Positions 15,039 through 27,457 of a DNA stretch of 30,283 bases are shown here, piece by piece. A model generated the notes under the pieces. It was given only the letters and a program-made list of their open reading frames with translations. It did no database searches and was not told the origin of the DNA. The position numbers were made by a program, and so were the translations under genes. The DNA comes from a phage: the NCBI GenBank assembly GCA_021534775.1, contig GCA_021534775.1_4809.1; one strand, 5' to 3'. How positions within the stretch are numbered: the first letter of the stretch is position 1; every line of letters starts with the position of its first letter.

Positions 15039-15686
15039 TTATCCTGTGGCCTGCATACTGCGTACATACTTCTGCTCTAATGAATAGATGAAGTCGGCGA
15101 CAGTCAATCCCTTCGTGTGCCATTCATACATGGTGAAGCCTGTATTCAGGAAATAGCCGCGCACCTTGTCCATCGCTTCAGCTTCCTCCATTGAAGCCAT
15201 CAGCGCGGCGACGTTGTCATAAGAAGGCACAAATCCCTTCTTGCGTAGCGCATTGCGCAAATCTTTAGTTCTGAATCCAATCTTGCAAGGGTCATCACGG
15301 CCCGTGGATGATGCAACCTTCGGTAGCGCAAGGAACTCTTTAAGGAACATTGCAATGTTCAAGTCTCCTGCGTCATCAAGCTTCTGGATTCGGTTGCGAC
15401 CGCGCCCCTTGAATTCACTCGCACGAGGGTGAGCGCCAAAACAGTGCGCCCCTTCCAGTTTAGGGTCAATGATCATTACATCTTTACCAATGCGCAGCTC
15501 TACGTAGTAAAGATAAGACTCATCGACAAGCTTTGTACGTTTGCAAGTGATTGAGTCCTTATCATAGCCAAAGCCACGCAACACTGTTGAAATCATCCGG
15601 TTCATTTCTTCGCCGTGAACATCACTTTCTTTGTTCAGTTCACCAAGATGTTGAAAGAATTTAGCGATGTTGATTGCTTTATTCAT
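15039..15686 (-). CDS. Hypothetical protein (215 aa)
   Basis: ORF; start overlaps the stop of the helicase-like gene. Confidence 0.65.
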   Translation of the reverse strand: MNKAINIAKFFQHLGELNKESDVHGEEMNRMISTVLRGFGYDKDSITCKRTKLVDESYLYYVELRIGKDVMIIDPKLEGAHCFGAHPRASEFKGRGRNRIQKLDDAGDLNIAMFLKEFLALPKVASSTGRDDPCKIGFRTKDLRNALRKKGFVPSYDNVAALMASMEEAEAMDKVRGYFLNTGFTMYEWHTKGLTVADFIYSLEQKYVRSMQATG

Positions 15687-17356
15687 CAGAATTCATCCTT
15701 ATCTCTTCCTAAAGAACGTTTGCGTTCAATAACCTTCTTCAAGAATTCAATATCTTCAGGGTCAGACTCATCGCGGATAAGATACGCTAAGATGGTCATT
15801 AAATCAGAAATGTATTCTCCTGCTTCATTCTTAATCAGCGGCGTAAAGTAACCGCGCTGGTTGCGATAGGTCGCAGGCTCAAAGCCAAGCTTTGACATGT
15901 GCGGCGCAAGGGTACGAGAGAAAGGCGACTTGCCGCACTTCGCTCTGAATCCCATAGCGATAGCACCACTGGTGATGTGCCAGCGTCCGCTGTGATGTCG
16001 GTCATAAGGCGCGGTGATGACGACTTCAACAAGGTCGTTGTCAACCATCTCATCACGGATAACGCCGCGCGCACGTTCCATTTCGTTCTTGCTGAACTCA
16101 GTAAGCATGCGAGATGTTTCACCAACAAACGCGTTATAGCCTGCTTCGCCGTGCTTCTCCATCCATGCAGCGCACTCAGCCATCAACTGCCAAACGTCTT
16201 CTTTCAAAGTAGAAAGGTCAGCTTGGAAGTCTTTCGACCAGTTCGGTTGCCCGTCCTTGTCAGCGAGTTGGCCAACAAATATGGGATACACACGACGGTT
16301 GCCCGTGTCATCACGCTGCATGCCTGCGTATTCGTTGCCGTCCATGATAGCAATCCACTGGCGTGGTTTTACCTGCGTATCTTCAAATTTGAAGTCCAGG
16401 TCATCTTCCGTCTTAGTCAGGAATGCTTTCATGTTTTCGATGTCGGCCTTTTTAAAGCCTGTCATCTCGCCAACGTTCGCTATGATTGAGCGGCCCGTAA
16501 TAGCTCGCAAGAACGGGTTGAAGTTCTGCGCGGCTAAGTTCAACGGAATCGGTGTTGCGTGGCGGTCGTTCATAATAGCTTCGCAAAGCAGCTTGCTAAA
16601 ATAACTCTTCCCTGCGTTCTGGCCGCCGATGAGCGCGATGGAGATTGGCGCTTGACAGCCAGGGTTGGTCAGGCGATTATAGAGCGATAGCCAAAAATAC
16701 ACACCGATTTGTCGGTTTAACTCTGTATCGAACGGTCGGAATAGCTCGATAAGGTATTTCTCAATGCGCGCAGTACCGTCCCATTCAGGCAGCTTCTTGT
16801 AGAAGAAGTCCATCAGGTCGTCGCGCTGATAACGCATGGCCCATTCCTTATAGGATTGAGCGACCTGACGTGAGTTTGGGTTGGACAGCCCTGCTGCGTC
16901 GACAGCGGCAACTATCTCTGTGACTTCCAAGGTACGGTCAGTGAATGTTTCGCCGCGATGGTCGACTAAGCGCCCACGAAAAGTATCTTTGTGAGGGAAT
17001 GGAACAACGCCACTTCCCTTATCAAACAACGCGTCGAAAACCGCATAACGGTTCATGTCACTCGTCCGGTCTGCTTGTAGAACGAAGTCATCTTTGGTCG
17101 GCTTGTAGTGAGGGAACTTGATTACCTGAAGTGAGGCGAGCAAGCGTGCTCTTTCAACCAAGTCTTCTTCACCGTAGCATTCCATGCGCTCTGAATCTTT
17201 TTCAACGGCTTTATGTTGAAGGCTGATTTTAGCTCTGGTGCCTTGTTGCTCTGCTGCCTGCATTTCTTCCGAAACGCCTGCATCTTGAATTTCGTCAAAG
17301 ATTGCACCAAATTCATCACCTGTATCCTCTGGAAGATTGTCATTATTAATTGACAT
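15686..17356 (-). CDS. P-loop NTPase, likely primase-associated (VirE/D5-like) replicative helicase
   Basis: 556-aa ORF with Walker A GGQNAGKS and a hydrophobic stretch ending in acidic residues (SIIANVGEM); lies directly downstream of the primase-like gene. Confidence 0.7.
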   Translation of the reverse strand: MSINNDNLPEDTGDEFGAIFDEIQDAGVSEEMQAAEQQGTRAKISLQHKAVEKDSERMECYGEEDLVERARLLASLQVIKFPHYKPTKDDFVLQADRTSDMNRYAVFDALFDKGSGVVPFPHKDTFRGRLVDHRGETFTDRTLEVTEIVAAVDAAGLSNPNSRQVAQSYKEWAMRYQRDDLMDFFYKKLPEWDGTARIEKYLIELFRPFDTELNRQIGVYFWLSLYNRLTNPGCQAPISIALIGGQNAGKSYFSKLLCEAIMNDRHATPIPLNLAAQNFNPFLRAITGRSIIANVGEMTGFKKADIENMKAFLTKTEDDLDFKFEDTQVKPRQWIAIMDGNEYAGMQRDDTGNRRVYPIFVGQLADKDGQPNWSKDFQADLSTLKEDVWQLMAECAAWMEKHGEAGYNAFVGETSRMLTEFSKNEMERARGVIRDEMVDNDLVEVVITAPYDRHHSGRWHITSGAIAMGFRAKCGKSPFSRTLAPHMSKLGFEPATYRNQRGYFTPLIKNEAGEYISDLMTILAYLIRDESDPEDIEFLKKVIERKRSLGRDKDEF

Positions 17357-18666: not shown

Positions 18667-19749
18667 CTATTTTATGCCACCTGCACGACGATTTATCATG
18701 TCAAGTTGATTCTCAATATAAGGCATGACGATTGCTTCAACAAAAGCGGTCCAACCTTTCTTGCCTTCCCCTTTCCGGTGACAGTCGTGGGCGCAACCGA
18801 ACACAAACTCATGTTCTGCACCAGGAATAGGGCCACGAAAGTAAGCGCCATACGGGTCTCCGTTGGTGTGCTCTTCACCCCAAGGACAGATTATGCGGCA
18901 CTTGCCTGACATATTTTCAATAACGTCGCCATCAGACCCTTCACCCATCTTGTTGCGCGCTAGAATCTGCTGGGCTATTTTATACCAAACAGCATCGTAC
19001 TTGTATTCATCGACGTCAATTTGAATCTCACGCTTTTGCGGCATGACGACGTGAAAGCCGAATGCCTGACAAATGTCTTCGATGGTGTAGCGCAATGAGT
19101 AGTCTGCATGGACAAGTCGGCAGCGGAACGGGTCACCGTTCTCATCGACATATTTATAGGGGCCGTCATGAGTCACACGCTTGTTGTTGATGCACCCAGG
19201 AACACGGCCCACGCGCGTTACGTCTTTAATCGTGTTGTCGCCGCCCTTCTTGAGTACCATGTTAACGAAAGACCCAAGGAACGCTTTGAACTGAATAAGA
19301 TGGTCAATCGGTTCTTTAAAGAAGTACCAAAGCTGGTGGTTGTTCGGTGACGTCTCGACGATGACAGTTGGCTTCAGTCGCTCGAAAAAGAACTCCAAAT
19401 CTAAATCGCCTTTGGACCCTTTACCGTGACCGATGTCATCAACCATCATCGCCATGCCGTGACCAAAGGCCGACTCTGTACGCCAGTATCGCATCTCACC
19501 CGTCTTTGGGTTGGGAGACTTACGCATTGAACTGATGCAAGCATAGCCGTTTTGGTGCTGCATGAGCGGCTTGCCCAACTTCCAAGGCTTAGGCCAGAAA
19601 CTGCTGTTAATCTTCTTGCCGCGCTCGTCGGTCTGCACCGTTGCTTCAGGCGCAAACACCGTCATGACGCGTTCATCTTCTGGAATGCCTCTTTGGAGTT
19701 CTGTTAAAAACTCTTCGATTATTTTTGCTTCTTCTCTTAAACTAGCCAT
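18667..19749 (-). CDS. Putative DNA primase (archaeo-eukaryotic primase / prim-pol-like) with C-terminal Cys/His cluster
   Basis: MMVDDIGHG (DxD-type motif), SPNNHQLWYF (His motif), RVGRVPGCINNK, and C-terminal CRIICPWGEEH...FGCAHDCH; sits next to the P-loop helicase-like gene. Confidence 0.5.
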   Translation of the reverse strand: MASLREEAKIIEEFLTELQRGIPEDERVMTVFAPEATVQTDERGKKINSSFWPKPWKLGKPLMQHQNGYACISSMRKSPNPKTGEMRYWRTESAFGHGMAMMVDDIGHGKGSKGDLDLEFFFERLKPTVIVETSPNNHQLWYFFKEPIDHLIQFKAFLGSFVNMVLKKGGDNTIKDVTRVGRVPGCINNKRVTHDGPYKYVDENGDPFRCRLVHADYSLRYTIEDICQAFGFHVVMPQKREIQIDVDEYKYDAVWYKIAQQILARNKMGEGSDGDVIENMSGKCRIICPWGEEHTNGDPYGAYFRGPIPGAEHEFVFGCAHDCHRKGEGKKGWTAFVEAIVMPYIENQLDMINRRAGGIK

Positions 19750-20236: not shown

Positions 20237-21420
20237 TGAACATTCCAGAATTTTATGATGAGCCAGCGATTCAGTTTAACGCGCAACAAATTGATGCTAT
20301 CGAAAAGGCCGTTGCATGGTACAAGCGATTGCAGGACGGTAAAACGACGAAGCGCGTGTTTTTCATTGCTGGCTATGCAGGGACTGGTAAAACCTCTATT
20401 GCTCGCGAGATTGTGCGCCGTTGTGTCGGTGAGTATGGCGCTATCTATATTGCGCCGACCGGAAAGGCTGCAAGCCGATTAAAGCAAAAAGGATGTCGTG
20501 GCGCTAAGACACTTCACCAGTTCATCTATAACGTGCGCGGCGTAAATGACGACAATGAGCCAATCTTTTCGAGAAAGTCAAAACTGGACGAAAGGCCGCA
20601 CCTTGTTGTACTCGATGAAGCGTCGATGGTTGGCGAGTGGGACACAGAGCGACTTCTTGATCACCGCATCCCTGTTCTGGCATTAGGCGACATTGGACAA
20701 GTCCCTCCGGTAAAAGCCGCCGCCTACTTTACTGAAGAAGCTGTTGACGTTCTGTTAACAGAAATCATGCGGCAGGGGAAAGAGTCCAACATCATCCGTG
20801 CCTCCTTCTTCGTGCGCCAAGGCAACCGACTTCCTCCGCGTGAATACGATGACGTCAAAGTATTGGCAGAATCGCCGCGCGTTACTGCATTGAAGAAATT
20901 CATGGGCGAAGATGATCAAATTATTTGCTCCTATAATAGCACCAAAGATAAATGGAATTCATTATTACGGCAAGTGAGCGGACGTATAACGCCAATGCCA
21001 GGAATCGGCGAGAAGGTTATTTGCACCTTCAACCAACACGGTCCAGGATTCTGTAATGGCGAGCAAGGGATTGTTATTAGCTATGAGCCAGTGCCGGACT
21101 TTGAAAGGGATGAAGATGAGTCGAATGAAATAATGTATGTCAACTTGCGTTCATTGACTGATGGTAAAGATATAAAGGTAAAGATTAATCCTCTTTCCTT
21201 CTCTACTGATCAGGAAGTGCGCAAAGAAGCGCAACGTGCTGTTGGTGGGATGGACTATGGCTATGTCATCACGGTGCACAAATCGCAAGGCAGCGAGTGG
21301 GACAATGTGTGCGTGCTGGAAGAAATCTTGCGCGGCGTTCCGTACTCCAAGATGATGTACACCGCTATCACCCGTGCTAAGAAGAATCTGACCGTGTACC
21401 GTGATTTGAAAGCGCGTTAA
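20236..21420 (+). CDS. Dda/RecD-like superfamily 1 DNA helicase
   Basis: Walker A GYAGTGKTS, Walker B VVLDEASMV, and C-terminal ITVHKSQGSEWDNV / YTAITRAKKNL motifs. Confidence 0.85.
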   Translation: MNIPEFYDEPAIQFNAQQIDAIEKAVAWYKRLQDGKTTKRVFFIAGYAGTGKTSIAREIVRRCVGEYGAIYIAPTGKAASRLKQKGCRGAKTLHQFIYNVRGVNDDNEPIFSRKSKLDERPHLVVLDEASMVGEWDTERLLDHRIPVLALGDIGQVPPVKAAAYFTEEAVDVLLTEIMRQGKESNIIRASFFVRQGNRLPPREYDDVKVLAESPRVTALKKFMGEDDQIICSYNSTKDKWNSLLRQVSGRITPMPGIGEKVICTFNQHGPGFCNGEQGIVISYEPVPDFERDEDESNEIMYVNLRSLTDGKDIKVKINPLSFSTDQEVRKEAQRAVGGMDYGYVITVHKSQGSEWDNVCVLEEILRGVPYSKMMYTAITRAKKNLTVYRDLKAR

Positions 21421-21579
21421 TGTTGACGTAAATTTACGAAAAATAAAACTGAAAATCAGTTTAATTAAAGTGGCATTGCCGCCATAGTTTTTAGTTGCTA
21501 CTGGCGGCGACTGAAGGCATAATTAAGTTATCCCAAACGGGGAATATAAAATAAACTAATTTATTTAAGGACTGTGAAC

Positions 21580-22419
21580 ATGGCCGAAGCAATCAAAGTA
21601 TTATCCAAAGAAGAAAAACAAGCAGCTGCAGCAGAACGTCGTCGCGTGGCTGAAGAAAAACGCCTGGCTAAAAAGAAAGAAGCCGAAGAAAAACGCCAGA
21701 AGCGTGAGCAGGAAAAACAAGCCAAGCGTGAAGAAGCTGCACTGAAACGCAAGCAGGCCGCTGATGAGAAAGCACAGAAACGTGCTGAAGAAGCAGCGAA
21801 GAAAGCCAAAGAGCGTGCAGAAAAAGCTGCTGCTAAGAAAGCAGAGCGTGAAGCCGCTAAAGCAGCGAAAGAAATCGAAAAGGCAAAGGCTAAAGAAGAA
21901 GCCAAGCGCCTGAAAGCTGAACAAGCTGCTGCTAAGAAAGCAGAGCGTGATCAAGCCCGTGCTGCTGCTAAAGCAGAGAAGGAAAAGGCTAAAGAAGAAG
22001 CGAAAGCCAAACGCAAGGCAGAGCGTGAAGCTGCTAAGATTGCGGCGAAAGAAGCTGCAGAACAGCAGAAAGAACAGCGTAAGCAAGAAGCTGAAGAACG
22101 TCGCAAGGCTATCGCAGAGCGTAAGGCTGCTAAAAAGGCAAACGGTCAGCGTCGTGCAAAAGCTACTCACTTCATCTACACTGGCAACGGCCTGAGCCAG
22201 CCGCAAGAGCATTCCACCCGTGGACGCGTTCTGGCGGCGATCAAAGAAGGCGAAGTTGGCGTGGCGCAGTCTATCGATGAGCTGGGCGAAAAAGTTAAAG
22301 ATCAACTGTTTGGTGCTTCCGTTCGCTCCTACCTGAGCAAGCTGGAAGAGATGGGCCACATCGAGTTTGTCGATGTTGAATCCAACGACGATGCCGAAGA
22401 CGGTGATCAAGCGGAATAA
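21580..22419 (+). CDS. K/E/A-rich charged protein with a globular C-terminal domain (possible winged-helix)
   Basis: About 190 aa of KAEKEAAK-type low-complexity charged helix, then RGRVLAAIKEGEVGVAQSIDELGEKVKDQLFGASVRSYLSKLEEMGHIE; start taken at the ATG with RBS aagga rather than the track GTG at 21574. Confidence 0.65.
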   Translation: MAEAIKVLSKEEKQAAAAERRRVAEEKRLAKKKEAEEKRQKREQEKQAKREEAALKRKQAADEKAQKRAEEAAKKAKERAEKAAAKKAEREAAKAAKEIEKAKAKEEAKRLKAEQAAAKKAERDQARAAAKAEKEKAKEEAKAKRKAEREAAKIAAKEAAEQQKEQRKQEAEERRKAIAERKAAKKANGQRRAKATHFIYTGNGLSQPQEHSTRGRVLAAIKEGEVGVAQSIDELGEKVKDQLFGASVRSYLSKLEEMGHIEFVDVESNDDAEDGDQAE

Positions 22420-22447: not shown

Positions 22448-22475
22448 GACCCACACTTGTTGTGGGTCTTTTTTC
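22448..22475 (+). terminator. Intrinsic terminator
   Basis: gacccacac ttgt tgtgggtc followed by tttttt. Confidence 0.75.
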
Positions 22476-22500
22476 GTCTGTACTAAATAGAAATGACTTG

Positions 22501-22529: not shown

Positions 22530-22559
22530 TCTCATATCACCCACAAAGGACAAATGAAC

Positions 22560-23549
22560 ATGAAACAACCTGTAATGATTATCGGCGGCGGTTTGGCAGG
22601 ACTTATTACCGCGTGTCACTTCCCGAACTCTATTGTGTACGAAGCAGGGGAGCGAGCGCCACAGCACAAGGCGCTGCTACGCTTTCGCGGCGAAGAAGTA
22701 AGCCGTATTACCGGAATCCCTTTTAAGGCAGTGACAGTTGACAAGGCTGTGTATTTTCGCGGTAACTACTATCACGACCATTGCCCAATCAACCTTGCCA
22801 ATATGTATTCGATGAAGGTCACCAATCAGTTTGGCAGTCGCTCAATCATGAAGCTTAAAGCTGCAACGCGTTATATTGCGCCAGACGACTTCTATGATCA
22901 GCTTGTCGATAAACTGGGGGACCGTATATTCTTTAACACTCCGGTTGACACTCTTTGCGGCTATAGCGAGACGCCAATCATCAACACGTCGCCGCTGCCA
23001 GTTATGATGAAGCTGGCTGGGATTGATCAAAAGCTTGATTTTTCATTTGATAAAGCAAACATTCGTGTTTACCGCTTTAAGATTAAACGTAAGTGTGAGT
23101 TGTATCAGACAATTTACTTCCCTGACTACTCCGTCAGAACTTACCGCGCATCAATCACTGGTGACACACTTATCATCGAAACCATTCCTTTGGTCAGCGT
23201 AAGTGCAGCTGCAGTTGAAGCCGCTGGCGGCATCACTCGTTACCGCGACATGAAGCTTCGCGCAGAAGTCGACGAAGTGTTGACAGCCTTTGGCCTCTCA
23301 TGGAGTGACATTGCTCTTGAAGAAGTTGAAAAGGTCGACCAGAAATATGGCAAGATCGTCGACATTCCGAAGGACTTGCGACACGCCCTACTCCTGCAGC
23401 TGACTATGGATTTGAACGTGTTTAGTGTCGGTCGATTTGCTACCTGGCGCAACATTTTGCTTGATGATGTCGCTCATGACCTTGTTGAAGTTGAAAAACT
23501 CATCAAAGCAAATAACTATCAAAAATTTGCTTATATTGCTAATAAATAA
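22560..23549 (+). CDS. Rossmann-fold FAD/NAD(P)-binding oxidoreductase-like protein
   Basis: N-terminal dinucleotide-binding motif MIIGGGLAGL (GxGxxG); start at ATG 22560 fits the RBS aagga better than the track start at 22554. Confidence 0.65.
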   Translation: MKQPVMIIGGGLAGLITACHFPNSIVYEAGERAPQHKALLRFRGEEVSRITGIPFKAVTVDKAVYFRGNYYHDHCPINLANMYSMKVTNQFGSRSIMKLKAATRYIAPDDFYDQLVDKLGDRIFFNTPVDTLCGYSETPIINTSPLPVMMKLAGIDQKLDFSFDKANIRVYRFKIKRKCELYQTIYFPDYSVRTYRASITGDTLIIETIPLVSVSAAAVEAAGGITRYRDMKLRAEVDEVLTAFGLSWSDIALEEVEKVDQKYGKIVDIPKDLRHALLLQLTMDLNVFSVGRFATWRNILLDDVAHDLVEVEKLIKANNYQKFAYIANK

Positions 23550-24074: not shown

Positions 24075-24878
24075 ATGAAAGTTGAATTAATTCGATACAC
24101 CCAAGATGCACTTGACCTTCTGCTGGAAACAAAGAACACGCGCATGACTGGTAAGCCTGTCTCTGAGATGACGGAATCAGAGAAGCAAGAGCATTGGCGC
24201 TACATGCTTGACACCATCAAGTCGCCTTTTGACTTTGTGGACTATATCTTTGACATCACCGCTGTATCAAAGAATATGACTCATCAGATGGTACGCACAC
24301 GCACAGGCGCATATCAAGAACGCACCAGCCGCGCTCAGGAATCTTCTGCATTTGATGCGATTCGCCCGAAAGCGTTTGAGTATGACGACCCTGACAGGGT
24401 TATCGGCGAGCGAATCGACGAGCAGCGTTTGAAGTTGGCTAACACCTGGGATGATGCAATGGCAACCATTGATGCCCTATACCAAGAACTTCGCGCGGCT
24501 GGCGCAGAGATTCAGGATGCACGTGCTGTGTTGCCTTCTAATATGCAAACGCATATCATGGCAAAGTTCAACTTGCGCACTCTACAACAAATGGCATCAA
24601 ACCGCTTGTGCACGCGCACTCAAGGCGAATATCAGGAAGTTTTCCGTGCGATGGTAGCGGAAGTCCTCAAGGTGCACCCGTGGGCTAATCCTTTACTACA
24701 GCCGCAATGCATCGGTATGGGTAAGTGCGCATTTCCTCGTCACGGTAAGGCCCATTGCCCATGGTATCGTGGTTGGATGGATACCACTGCACAGCAAGAA
24801 GAGTTGCGCATCCAGTTTTGGAATGCCGCGCCAATCACCAACAATCCAGTTGCTAAAGATGGAGTATCAAAGGGATGA
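24075..24878 (+). CDS. Divergent ThyX-like (flavin-dependent thymidylate synthase family) protein
   Basis: SPFDF...THQMVRTRTGAYQERTSRAQ and ARAVLPSN...NLRTLQQMASNRL match the ThyX signature regions (TPFEH / RHRx7-8S / ARAVLP / NxRxxxxFxxLR as I recall them) but with substitutions at signature positions. Confidence 0.7.
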   Translation: MKVELIRYTQDALDLLLETKNTRMTGKPVSEMTESEKQEHWRYMLDTIKSPFDFVDYIFDITAVSKNMTHQMVRTRTGAYQERTSRAQESSAFDAIRPKAFEYDDPDRVIGERIDEQRLKLANTWDDAMATIDALYQELRAAGAEIQDARAVLPSNMQTHIMAKFNLRTLQQMASNRLCTRTQGEYQEVFRAMVAEVLKVHPWANPLLQPQCIGMGKCAFPRHGKAHCPWYRGWMDTTAQQEELRIQFWNAAPITNNPVAKDGVSKG

Positions 24879-26905: not shown

Positions 26906-27457
26906 ATGCCACATTTTAAAATTGAACAAATCGCCCTGTCCATTCCAGATGCTCAACGCGCTCAGGACTTCCTGGCTAAAATCGGCCTGACAGAGTGGTT
27001 CCATGATCATGTTGTTGCTACTGGTCGCGTATTTGAAGCTGATGACTTTAAAGGTCGTCGCGACGATTGCACCAATGAAGCTGACTTGCGCTTCAACTAT
27101 CAGGCTGGCAACGGCACCGATGTCGGCGCTGGTAAGCCTCTTGAGCTTGAAATCCTTGACTACACAATGGGCTGCAACTGGATTAATGAAAACATCGAAT
27201 ATATCGATGCGCACGATAATCAGGTCAGCCACCTTGGCATGCACGTGACTGCCGCTGAACTCGCTGAATGGCGTAAGTTCTTTAGTGAAGAAGGCATTCA
27301 GGTTGCACAGGAAGTTGTAACCGACTCTCACACCAACCCAAATATTGCTGGTCAGCGTCGTTACAACTATGTGATCTTTGATACTCGTGAAATCATCGGT
27401 GTCGACCTTAAGTTCATTGTGCGGTTGAATCAAGACGGTACTCCGTACACTGTATAA
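26906..27457 (+). CDS. VOC (glyoxalase / bleomycin-resistance / dioxygenase) fold protein, tentative
   Basis: RBS aagga; overall pattern including SHLGMHV suggests a metal-binding VOC-type fold, but the assignment is weak. Confidence 0.5.
   Translation: MPHFKIEQIALSIPDAQRAQDFLAKIGLTEWFHDHVVATGRVFEADDFKGRRDDCTNEADLRFNYQAGNGTDVGAGKPLELEILDYTMGCNWINENIEYIDAHDNQVSHLGMHVTAAELAEWRKFFSEEGIQVAQEVVTDSHTNPNIAGQRRYNYVIFDTREIIGVDLKFIVRLNQDGTPYTV

What the first reader, a model, noticed from the sequence alone, without database searches (positions are those of the whole stretch)
21580..22419. Long charged K/E/A helix fused to a winged-helix-like C-terminal domain
About 190 residues of near-pure Lys/Glu/Ala/Arg/Gln sequence precede a globular C-terminal domain whose pattern (RGRVLAAIKEGEVGVAQSIDELGEKV...SVRSYLSKLEEMGHIE) resembles a winged-helix DNA-binding domain. 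The gene has its own terminator. It could be a nucleoid- or DNA-associated protein expressed with the replication genes. The reverse strand carries a long Phe/Leu/Ser-rich ORF that is a compositional mirror artefact.
Basis: partly seen in the sequence, partly recalled or inferred. Interest (0 to 1): 0.45.

Follow-up and report, generated by a model that had tools for sequence, protein, structure and literature searches.

The report
Abundant phage protein: charge-striped helix plus winged helix
This is a real, probably very highly expressed gene of a Wifcevirus coliphage that fuses a roughly 26-nm α-helix, basic on one face and acidic on the other, to a small winged-helix-like domain; its function is untested, it is most likely a DNA-associated architectural protein, and the database label "TolA" is a composition artefact.

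Summary
The CDS at 21580-22419 (+) encodes 279 aa. Residues 10-188 are 94% K/E/A/R/Q. They are followed by a globular domain, an acidic tail, and a terminator at 22448-22468. The reverse-strand ORF is an artefact.

The window is a Wifcevirus, 97% identical to Bas100 and WFC. The protein belongs to PHROG 4765 (unknown function). That family is confined to PB1-like myoviruses and always sits at the head of the flavoprotein-ThyX-PNK-polymerase module.

New points:
- The helix has 11/3 periodicity, not heptads, with K/R on one face and E/D about 180° away. This holds in all six genera tested and is absent from E. coli TolA.
- The gene has the highest codon adaptation in the genome (0.60, against 0.56 for the major capsid gene).
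- 30 of 31 differences from Bas100 are synonymous.
- Published MS finds the protein in CsCl-purified Wifcevirus preparations. It is not among the proteins listed for DNA-stripped Pbunavirus ghosts.

Best reading (confidence about 0.4): an abundant, linker-histone-like protein associated with phage DNA. DNA binding is untested.

The parts
21421..21579 (+). Upstream intergenic region. It holds a terminator-like hairpin after the helicase gene (21470-21485), weak sigma-70-like matches (21406-21434, 21495-21523), a unique palindrome CGTAAATTTACG (21427-21438), and the Shine-Dalgarno AAGGA at 21567-21571.
   Evidence: The promoter matches are no more frequent than in shuffles, so a dedicated promoter is inferred, not shown.
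21580..22419 (+). CDS of the K/E/A-helix / winged-helix protein (279 aa, 31.1 kDa, pI 9.6); member of PHROG 4765.
   Evidence: Against Bas100 there are 30 synonymous changes and 1 non-synonymous. CAI is 0.607, the highest of 33 window ORFs.
21607..22134 (+). Region coding for the single uninterrupted alpha-helix, residues 10-185 (about 26 nm if fully helical). Net charge is about +24. K/R sit at hendecad positions 0, 3, 7, 10 and E/D at positions 2, 5, 8, 9.
   Evidence: AlphaFold model, (helix 10-185, pLDDT 65-97). Periodicity: K/R period 3.7, reached by 0 of 2000 shuffles; resultant 0.43 at 11/3 against 0.11 at 7/2; E/D lie 181 degrees away.
21820..22001 (+). Tandem duplication inside the helix: a 99-nt unit, 1.8 copies, 80% match. 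One unit is 33 aa, or three hendecads.
22150..22170 (+). Junction motif RRAKATH (residues 191-197). RR is near-invariant across the family. The motif leads into the N-terminal strand that occupies the place of the wing strand.
   Evidence: Alignments; models.
22168..22371 (+). Winged-helix-like globular domain, residues 197-264. Element order: strand 197-200, H1 213-222, strand 229-231, H2 232-243, H3 248-257, strand 261-264.
22321..22350 (+). Third helix, VRSYLSKLEE, at the position of a recognition helix. It is the most conserved segment of the family (R249, K254 and L255 invariant).
22375..22416 (+). Acidic C-terminal tail VESNDDAEDGDQAE (net -7), predicted disordered. Its acidic character and variable length are conserved in most relatives.
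22448..22478 (+). Intrinsic terminator-like hairpin (8-bp stem with 5 GC pairs, 5-nt loop) followed by a T-run.
   Evidence: Terminators are annotated at the equivalent position in MTx, LBL3 and LMA2.
21601..22410 (-). Mirror ORF (269 aa, F/L/S-rich). It is not a gene.
   Evidence: All 31 differences from Bas100 are non-synonymous in this frame.
22554..23549 (+). Invariably linked downstream gene (331 aa, PHROG 4828). It has an N-terminal GxGxxG dinucleotide-binding motif and is otherwise unclassified. It is included as conserved context, not as a proven partner.

Best explanation
The gene encodes an abundant, elongated, basic architectural protein of PB1-like myoviruses. It probably associates with phage DNA during replication and may partly stay with DNA in virion preparations. 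In the proposed mechanism, the small C-terminal winged-helix-like module docks on DNA. The docking surface would be its conserved RR junction motif, the PQxxSxRG cap and the RSYLSKLEE third helix. The 176-residue straight helix would then lay its continuous Lys/Arg stripe along the polyanion. The opposite Glu/Asp stripe and the acidic tail would limit cross-linking or mediate side-by-side pairing with neighbouring copies, giving stoichiometric, cooperative coating. This is linker-histone-like or phi29-p6-like in logic, not in ancestry. Shown here: the gene is real and under strong purifying selection; the architecture; the conserved charge stripes; the codon bias; and, from published work, protein-level detection. 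Inferred: DNA as the ligand, the docking surfaces, and cooperative coating.
For: - **Charge.** The helix carries net +24, and the whole protein has pI 9.6.
- **Stripe.** K/R keep one phase at 11/3 periodicity over 110-180 residues in six genera (resultant 0.35-0.56; shuffle maxima 0.29-0.38; five of the six exceed every shuffle, and the shortest helix, Burkholderia BCSR52, falls just short at 0.35 against 0.38). E/D lie 177-195 degrees away, although the sequences themselves are not conserved. That indicates selection for a straight basic face.
- **Expression.** CAI is the highest in the window (0.607) and in Bas100 (0.599, against 0.559 for the major capsid). The helix and WH parts score equally. 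25 of 25 Arg codons are CGT/CGC. The gene has a good SD and its own terminator. This fits a stoichiometric role rather than a catalytic or regulatory one.
- **Selection.** dN/dS is very low even within the low-complexity part.
- **Position.** The gene sits at the head of the nucleotide-metabolism/replication module in every relative, including distant IMG/VR contigs.
- **Proteomics.** The 31.1-kDa 'TolA protein' ranks 6th of 33 by score in CsCl-purified vB_Eco4M-7 (PMC7048862). The orthologue ORF69 is absent from the 31 proteins of LiCl/DNase-treated, DNA-free SCUT-S1 ghosts, while the neighbouring ORF70 and ORF72 are present (PMC6521218). This is as expected if the protein leaves with the DNA.
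- **No rival candidate.** No other nucleoid-type protein or SSB is annotated in the Bas100 genome.
Against: - No DNA-binding assay exists and there is no sequence match to any DNA-binding family.
- Foldseek against the PDB gives no significant hit (best E = 0.3).
- The best structural matches are the MetAP2/Ebp1/Arx1 insert domain, which contacts ribosomes. Several other neighbours are protein-binding WH domains.
- The WH domain itself is not basic (pI 6.3) and its conserved third helix carries invariant acidic residues.
- A straight stripe cannot follow a DNA groove.
- Other non-structural proteins (helicase, FabG-like, glyoxalase-like) were also found in the same CsCl preparation, so simple carry-over of an abundant protein explains the MS result. 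ECML-117 gave only 2 peptides.
- Distant positional orthologues lack the charged helix, so the helix is not essential to the core function of the module.
Confidence: 0.4

Rival explanations
1. Protein-protein adaptor or spacer of the replication / nucleotide-synthesis machinery. The winged-helix-like module would bind a partner protein, for example the always-adjacent flavoprotein-like gp, the polymerase or a helicase. This is how RPA32C, ORC2-WH, archaeal PBP2 and kleisin WH domains work. The rigid charged helix would act as a 26-nm tether or self-association element.
Against: Expression apparently exceeding that of the capsid gene is unusual for an adaptor to enzymes with CAI about 0.3. A terminator separates the gene from the supposed partner gene. 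The coherent basic stripe suggests a polyanionic ligand. No interaction data exist.
Confidence: 0.22
2. Virion-internal protein, packaged in the head (with or without DNA contact) or acting as an ejected protein or ruler.
For: It was detected with a high score in CsCl-purified vB_Eco4M-7 and weakly in ECML-117. Some Pbunavirus records label the orthologue 'putative structural protein'.
Against: The 'structural' label traces to a similarity note ('putative cell wall associated protein/hydrolase') in LBL3 and LMA2, not to proteomics. The orthologue is not listed among the 31 ghost-particle proteins of SCUT-S1. The gene lies in the replication module, far from head and tail genes. Clearly non-structural enzymes were found in the same preparation. 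The main text of the Pa193 cryo-EM paper, searched only for 'TolA', 'helicase', 'non-structural' and 'DNA-binding', gave no hit; a gene number for the orthologue was not searched and its MS tables are not held.
Confidence: 0.15
3. Sequence-specific transcription factor for phage-specific (non-sigma-70) promoters, or an autoregulator of the adjacent operon.
For: It has a WH-type fold and sits at the head of an operon. Pbunavirus 14-1 has 11 promoters with a non-sigma-70 motif whose factor is unknown (PMC10914365). A palindrome overlaps a -35-like hexamer upstream.
Against: Capsid-level codon adaptation and high MS abundance are atypical for a transcription factor. The palindrome is unique in the window and matches with mismatches are at the chance level. 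176 residues of charged helix have no precedent in such regulators. The authors of the 14-1 study favour gp12 as the factor.
Confidence: 0.1
4. TolA-like envelope protein, as annotated in several GenBank records.
For: BLAST without composition correction aligns the helix to E. coli TolA domain II at E = 1e-32. The 'TolA protein' label appears in ECML-117, FEC19, vB_Eco4M-7, BcepF1 and Epa7.
Against: There is no transmembrane segment (maximum Kyte-Doolittle 19-residue window 0.61). No TolA model matches in Pfam or NCBIfam. All BLAST hits vanish with SEG and composition-based statistics. TolA domain II lacks the 11/3 charge stripes (resultant 0.12 against 0.43). The C-terminal fold is different and there is no tolQRB-pal context.
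Confidence: 0.01

Closest known systems
PHROG 4765 (orthologues: Pbunavirus ORF66/gp67-68 of 14-1, E217, LBL3, LMA2; Serratia MTx gp078; Burkholderia BcepF1 'TolA'; Aeromonas Gekk3-15 'TolA-like')
   Same: Full-length homology (E = 2.7e-84). Same architecture: charged helix, WH module, acidic tail. Same position after the Dda-like helicase and before the PHROG 4828 gene, ThyX and PNK. Same downstream terminator.
   Different: Nothing essential differs; this is the family it belongs to. No member has an assigned or tested function.
Linker histones H1/H5 and bacterial H1-like proteins such as Chlamydia Hc1 (analogy, from own knowledge)
   Same: A small winged-helix-type globular domain joined to a long lysine-rich extension. 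Abundant and basic. The yeast H1 globular domain appears among the weak Foldseek hits (E = 1.9).
   Different: No sequence or significant structural homology. The extension here is N-terminal, predicted as a rigid helix, and contains 22% acidic residues arranged as an opposite stripe. The H1 tail is disordered and almost purely K/A/P. The WH domain here is permuted.
Methionine aminopeptidase-2 / Ebp1 / Arx1 insert domain
   Different: 4-17% identity and not significant by Foldseek E-value. In MetAP2 it is an insertion in an enzyme that contacts the ribosome. No enzyme domain is present here.
E. coli TolA domain II
   Same: K/E/A-rich composition and a long predicted helix.
   Different: No TM anchor and no TolA C-terminal domain. 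Similarity is purely compositional. TolA lacks the 11/3 charge segregation.
ER/K single alpha-helix (SAH) domains and 11-mer amphipathic repeats (LEA group 3, apolipoproteins, alpha-synuclein), from own knowledge
   Same: Very few hydrophobic residues, high E/K/R content, and prediction as one continuous helix (SAH-like). The 11/3 periodicity gives straight, non-supercoiled faces, as in 11-mer repeat proteins.
   Different: Classical SAHs rely on alternating E/K blocks with i to i+4 pairs, which are only weakly enriched here (z about 2). 11-mer amphipathic repeats have an apolar face, which is absent here: the Ala resultant is 0.01.
Phage phi29 p6 and other abundant phage DNA-coating proteins such as SPO1 TF1 (functional analogy, own knowledge)
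   Same: An early or middle gene in the replication region, very high expression, and a small basic protein proposed to coat phage DNA.
   Different: Unrelated folds, and no experimental link.

Membership tests
PHROG 4765 (unknown function) | Significant full-length profile match | tested here: met
   E = 2.7e-84 over residues 1-279; the C-terminal domain alone gives E = 7.7e-44.
Winged-helix (wHTH) fold | H1-S1-H2-H3-S2-wing-S3 topology | tested here: inconclusive
   H1-S1-H2-H3-S2 is present with high pLDDT. There is no C-terminal wing or S3; an N-terminal strand (197-200) is present instead, and its pairing with the sheet is inferred because model coordinates were not inspected. This gives a permuted variant.
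Winged-helix (wHTH) fold | Significant structural similarity to solved WH domains | tested here: inconclusive
Winged-helix (wHTH) fold | Nucleic-acid binding through helix 3 and the wing | not testable with these tools
   Only conservation of R249, K254 and the RR191-192 motif can be reported.
TolA | N-terminal transmembrane anchor | tested here: not met
   The maximum Kyte-Doolittle 19-residue window is 0.61.
TolA | TolA C-terminal domain / profile match | tested here: not met
   No TolA model matches in Pfam or NCBIfam.
TolA | Sequence similarity beyond composition | tested here: not met
   BLAST E = 1e-32 without correction; no hit with SEG and composition-based statistics.
Canonical heptad coiled coil | 3.5-residue periodicity of a hydrophobic core | tested here: not met
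   7 strong hydrophobic residues in 179. Power at period 3.5 is about 0.05-0.3. The Ala resultant is 0.01.
ER/K single alpha-helix (SAH) | Charged, hydrophobic-poor sequence predicted as one helix | tested here: met
ER/K single alpha-helix (SAH) | Enrichment of i to i+3/4 opposite-charge pairs; monomeric stability in solution | tested here: inconclusive
   68 opposite-charge pairs against 56 ± 5.7 in shuffles (z = 2.05). Oligomeric state cannot be tested here.
Linker histone H1/H5 | Homology of the globular domain (H15 family) | tested here: not met
   No Pfam hit. The yeast H1 GII domain appears only at Foldseek E = 1.9.
Virion structural protein | Reproducible detection in purified particles | tested here: inconclusive
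   From the literature: high score in vB_Eco4M-7, 2 peptides in ECML-117, and not listed for SCUT-S1 ghosts. The 'structural' label derives from a similarity note.

The most novel reading that the evidence does not exclude
The protein is a new kind of viral chromatin or condensate organiser. Its 26-nm Janus helix would pair basic face to acidic face with neighbouring copies (a charge zipper) while the permuted winged helix anchors the array on phage DNA. The result would be an ordered coat or replication scaffold that is partly co-packaged. Such a coat could contribute to the very short latent period reported for wifceviruses or to shielding DNA from host defences.
Probability: 0.12. Interest if true: 0.75.

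Novelty: new variant of a known kind. Interest (0 to 1): 0.5.

Why it matters
PB1-like phages (Pbunavirus) are among the Pseudomonas phages most used in therapy, and Wifcevirus is now genetically tractable in E. coli K-12 through the BASEL collection. This gene appears to be the most codon-adapted gene in the genome, is conserved across the whole group, and has no known function. It is mislabelled 'TolA' or 'structural protein' in many records. If it coats or organises phage DNA, it would be a missing core component of the replication cycle of these phages. It would also be a new architecture for a DNA-organising protein: a rigid helix with segregated charge stripes joined to a permuted winged helix. 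Even if it does not, correcting the annotation and recording the conserved 11/3 charge pattern gives a clear, testable handle.

Tried and rejected
- Pfam, NCBIfam and PDB sequence searches of the whole protein, the C-terminal domain and a family profile gave nothing significant.
- Foldseek against the PDB was not significant. BFVD returned only family members. The AFDB library was unavailable.
- The word-indexed homologue search returned only 4-10 mostly fragmentary proteins. The exhaustive representative search gave 45 clusters.
- The 'structural protein' lead traced to a similarity note, not proteomics. The Ceyssens 2009 paper is not held. No supplementary files are held for the Pa193 or ONT-cappable-seq papers, so the MS tables of the former and the TSS tables of the latter could not be checked.
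- Operator search: the palindrome CGTAAATTTACG is unique, and near-matches occur at the chance level.
- There is no 22-residue or other super-period matching the DNA pitch.
- ORF66 in the Gabija preprint belongs to phage D3 and is unrelated.
- tblastn of a distant orthologue against GenBank phages found nothing. Those orthologues were found only in IMG/VR contigs.
- A profile search of the neighbouring flavoprotein-like gene against the PDB matched only the dinucleotide-binding motif, and not significantly.

Full report
**What is there.** The finding's coordinates match a real CDS, from ATG 21580 to TAA 22419 on the + strand. It encodes 279 aa (31.1 kDa, pI 9.6) and is preceded by an AAGGA Shine-Dalgarno 8 nt upstream. 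Residues 11-190 are 94% K/E/A/R/Q. Only seven strong hydrophobic residues occur in the 179 residues 10-188. Residues 191-265 have ordinary globular composition, and the last 14 residues are acidic (net -7). A clean hairpin plus T-run follows at 22448-22468, and another hairpin lies between the upstream helicase gene and this gene. The 269-aa F/L/S-rich ORF on the reverse strand exists but is not a gene. Against phage Bas100 there are 31 nucleotide differences. Thirty are third-position synonymous changes in the + frame, with one amino-acid change (Q169K). All 31 would change the mirror protein. That result also shows the low-complexity helix is under strong purifying selection at the sequence level within the genus.

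**Where it comes from.** The region is 97% identical to Wifcevirus coliphages such as Bas98-101, WFC, ECML-117, FEC19 and vB_Eco4M-7. The records call the gene 'hypothetical protein' or 'TolA protein'. It matches PHROG 4765 (unknown function) at E = 2.7e-84 and has no Pfam or NCBIfam match. tblastn with the C-terminal 89 aa finds 357 phage records. Of these, 293 are Pseudomonas phages, the sampled ones being Pbunavirus. The rest include Serratia MTx, Burkholderia Bcepfunavirus, Luteibacter Pluto, Aeromonas Gekk3-15 and Xanthomonas phages. An exhaustive HMM search of 1.84 billion representative proteins finds only 45 clusters, so the family is narrow.

**Gene order.** In Pbunavirus, MTx, Pluto and Gekk3-15 the order is Dda-like helicase, this gene, a roughly 330-aa PHROG 4828 gene, ThyX, then PNK. 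Burkholderia BCSR52 keeps the helicase upstream, but a small PNK-like gene follows directly and no flavoprotein-like or ThyX gene is annotated nearby.

**Distant orthologues keep the C-terminal module only.** The weakest family members (P0036-P0044) carry the same C-terminal module (RRxK...GTSKPQAGSxRG...RGYLQKLxEKGH). Their N-terminal half is a different small domain (PHROG 4730) instead of the charged helix. Their IMG/VR contigs have this gene at the same place, followed by the flavoprotein-like gene, ThyX, PNK, usually the FabG-like gene and orf183, and the exonuclease subunit. The Dda helicase is not found on these loci. The C-terminal module is therefore the conserved core, and the K/E/A helix is a lineage-specific replacement of the N-terminal half.

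**Structure.**
- With a small alignment, AlphaFold2 models the C-terminal 94 residues at pLDDT about 90 in the core.
- For the full protein it gives one uninterrupted helix, 10-185, followed by the domain at pLDDT 93-97.
- The order of elements is strand (197-200), H1 (213-222), strand, H2, H3 (248-257), strand (261-264).
- This is a winged-helix-type three-helix and sheet unit with no C-terminal wing strand; an N-terminal strand probably fills that place. The strand pairing is inferred from the order of elements, since model coordinates were not inspected.
- Foldseek against the PDB ranks the same proteins first but gives no significant E-value. BFVD returns only family members.
- The fold assignment is therefore reasonable. 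DNA binding does not follow from it.

**The helix is ordered, not just low-complexity.**
- There is no heptad signal, and Ala shows no preferred face. A classical or Ala-zipper coiled coil is therefore unlikely.
- K/R have a period of 3.7, reached by 0 of 2000 shuffles. They occupy hendecad positions 0, 3, 7 and 10 (43 of about 63 K/R), and E/D occupy positions 2, 5, 8 and 9.
- On an 11/3 wheel the K/R resultant is 0.43 (shuffle maximum 0.29). The E/D resultant is 0.44 and points 181° away.
- The same pattern holds in E217, MTx, BCSR52, Pluto and Gekk3-15: K/R resultants of 0.35-0.56 with E/D at 177-195°. The helix sequences themselves are not alignable beyond composition. The shortest helix, BCSR52, scores 0.35 against a shuffle maximum of 0.38, so it alone does not exceed every shuffle.
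- The helix is thus a straight 'Janus' rod about 26 nm long, with a continuous basic stripe opposite a continuous acidic stripe and a net charge of about +24.
- A 99-nt tandem duplication (33 aa, three hendecads) shows how the helix grows.
- E. coli TolA domain II has no such pattern (resultant 0.12). BLAST similarity to TolA disappears with composition correction, there is no TM segment, and no TolA domain is found. The TolA label is a composition artefact.

**Expression.**
With these, the gene has CAI 0.607, the highest of 33 window ORFs. The next is 0.46 and the median is about 0.29.
- The helix part and the WH part score equally (0.60 and 0.615).
- In Bas100 the orthologue is the highest of 46 genes scored (0.599), above the major capsid gene (0.559).
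- Independently of the recalled table, codon choice is extreme: 25 of 25 Arg codons are CGT/CGC, 9 of 10 Leu are CTG, and 7 of 8 Ile are ATC.
- With its SD and bracketing hairpins, the gene looks like a separate, very strongly expressed unit.

**Published proteomics.**
- The 31.1-kDa 'TolA protein' was found in CsCl-purified vB_Eco4M-7 with 7 peptides and 25.8% coverage. Its score of 1198 ranks 6th of 33, above capsid and sheath.
- It was found only weakly in ECML-117. Several non-structural enzymes were detected in the same samples (PMC7048862).
- In Pbunavirus SCUT-S1, 'ghost' particles stripped of DNA with LiCl and DNase gave 31 proteins. These include the neighbouring ORF70 (helicase) and ORF72 but not the orthologue ORF69 (PMC6521218).
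- The 'putative structural protein' label in Pbunavirus records goes back to a similarity note in LBL3 and LMA2, not to MS.

**Interpretation.** The best-supported reading is an abundant, basic, elongated architectural protein that associates with phage DNA. The WH-like module, with its RR junction motif and the highly conserved RSYLSKLEE helix, would be the anchor. The basic stripe would be the extended contact. The acidic stripe and tail would limit cross-linking or mediate lateral pairing. I give this a confidence of 0.4 because the ligand is inferred. The rivals are:
- a protein-protein adaptor or tether in the replication/nucleotide module (0.22);
- a packaged internal virion protein (0.15);
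- a transcription factor for the unexplained non-sigma-70 promoters of these phages (0.10; PMC10914365);
- TolA-like function (0.01, rejected).

**Novelty and score.** The family is uncharacterised and mis-annotated. The combination of a permuted winged helix with a conserved charge-striped 11/3 helix, and codon bias above that of the capsid gene, has, as far as I could find, not been described. It is most simply a new variant of the known kind 'small abundant phage DNA-architectural protein'. Interest is 0.5. It is a solid, testable lead in a therapeutically important and now tractable phage group, but its mechanism rests on inference.

Noticed in passing
window 22554-23549 (+): A 331-aa protein (PHROG 4828) with an N-terminal GGGLAGL dinucleotide-binding motif and an invariant C-terminal GRFATWRNILLDD motif. 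It has no Pfam, NCBIfam or PDB sequence match. It lies directly downstream of the K/E/A-WH gene in every relative checked except Burkholderia BCSR52, including distant IMG/VR contigs. It is probably an unclassified flavoprotein. From memory, the C-terminal motif resembles that of UDP-galactopyranose mutase; this was not tested.
   Followed up: partly
window 24075-24878 (+): The gene annotated 'thymidylate synthase' in Bas100 aligns to the same places as the FAD-dependent ThyX of E217 in distant contigs, so it is ThyX-type.
   Followed up: partly
window 21427-21438: A perfect 12-bp palindrome, CGTAAATTTACG, overlaps a TTGACG -35-like hexamer just after the helicase stop codon. It is unique in the window, and near-matches occur at the chance level.
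   Followed up: partly
window 21820-22001: A 99-nt tandem duplication (1.8 copies, 80% match) inside the helix-coding region. One unit is 33 aa, exactly three hendecads. It indicates length change by unit duplication.
   Followed up: yes
window 26906-27457 (+): A 183-aa ORF, called 'glyoxalase family protein' in vB_Eco4M-7. It has the second-highest CAI in the window (0.464) and a high MS score (718) in CsCl-purified phage. It is conserved next to the FabG-like gene in distant contigs.
   Followed up: no
L013 31638-32498 (-) (Bas100_0039, outside the window): A 286-aa hypothetical protein with CAI 0.55, third in the genome. By size and gene order, its probable orthologues are detected by MS in vB_Eco4M-7 (_70, 31.2 kDa) and in SCUT-S1 ghosts (ORF54, 32.2 kDa). 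It is a second highly expressed unknown, possibly virion-associated.
   Followed up: no
L015-L021 (IMG/VR contigs), e.g. L017 6001-6627: Positional orthologues of the target keep the C-terminal winged-helix module but carry a different N-terminal domain (PHROG 4730; motif LVxTYNALTGKxIKKFxSRxxAExRV) instead of the charged helix.
   Followed up: partly
window 18667-19749 (-) and 15686-17356 (-): Two primase-type genes lie on the opposite strand upstream: a RepB-primase-domain protein (Pfam E = 4.5e-36) and a 556-aa gene whose Bas100 counterpart is annotated DNA primase. The target therefore sits at a divergent junction of the replication region.
   Followed up: no
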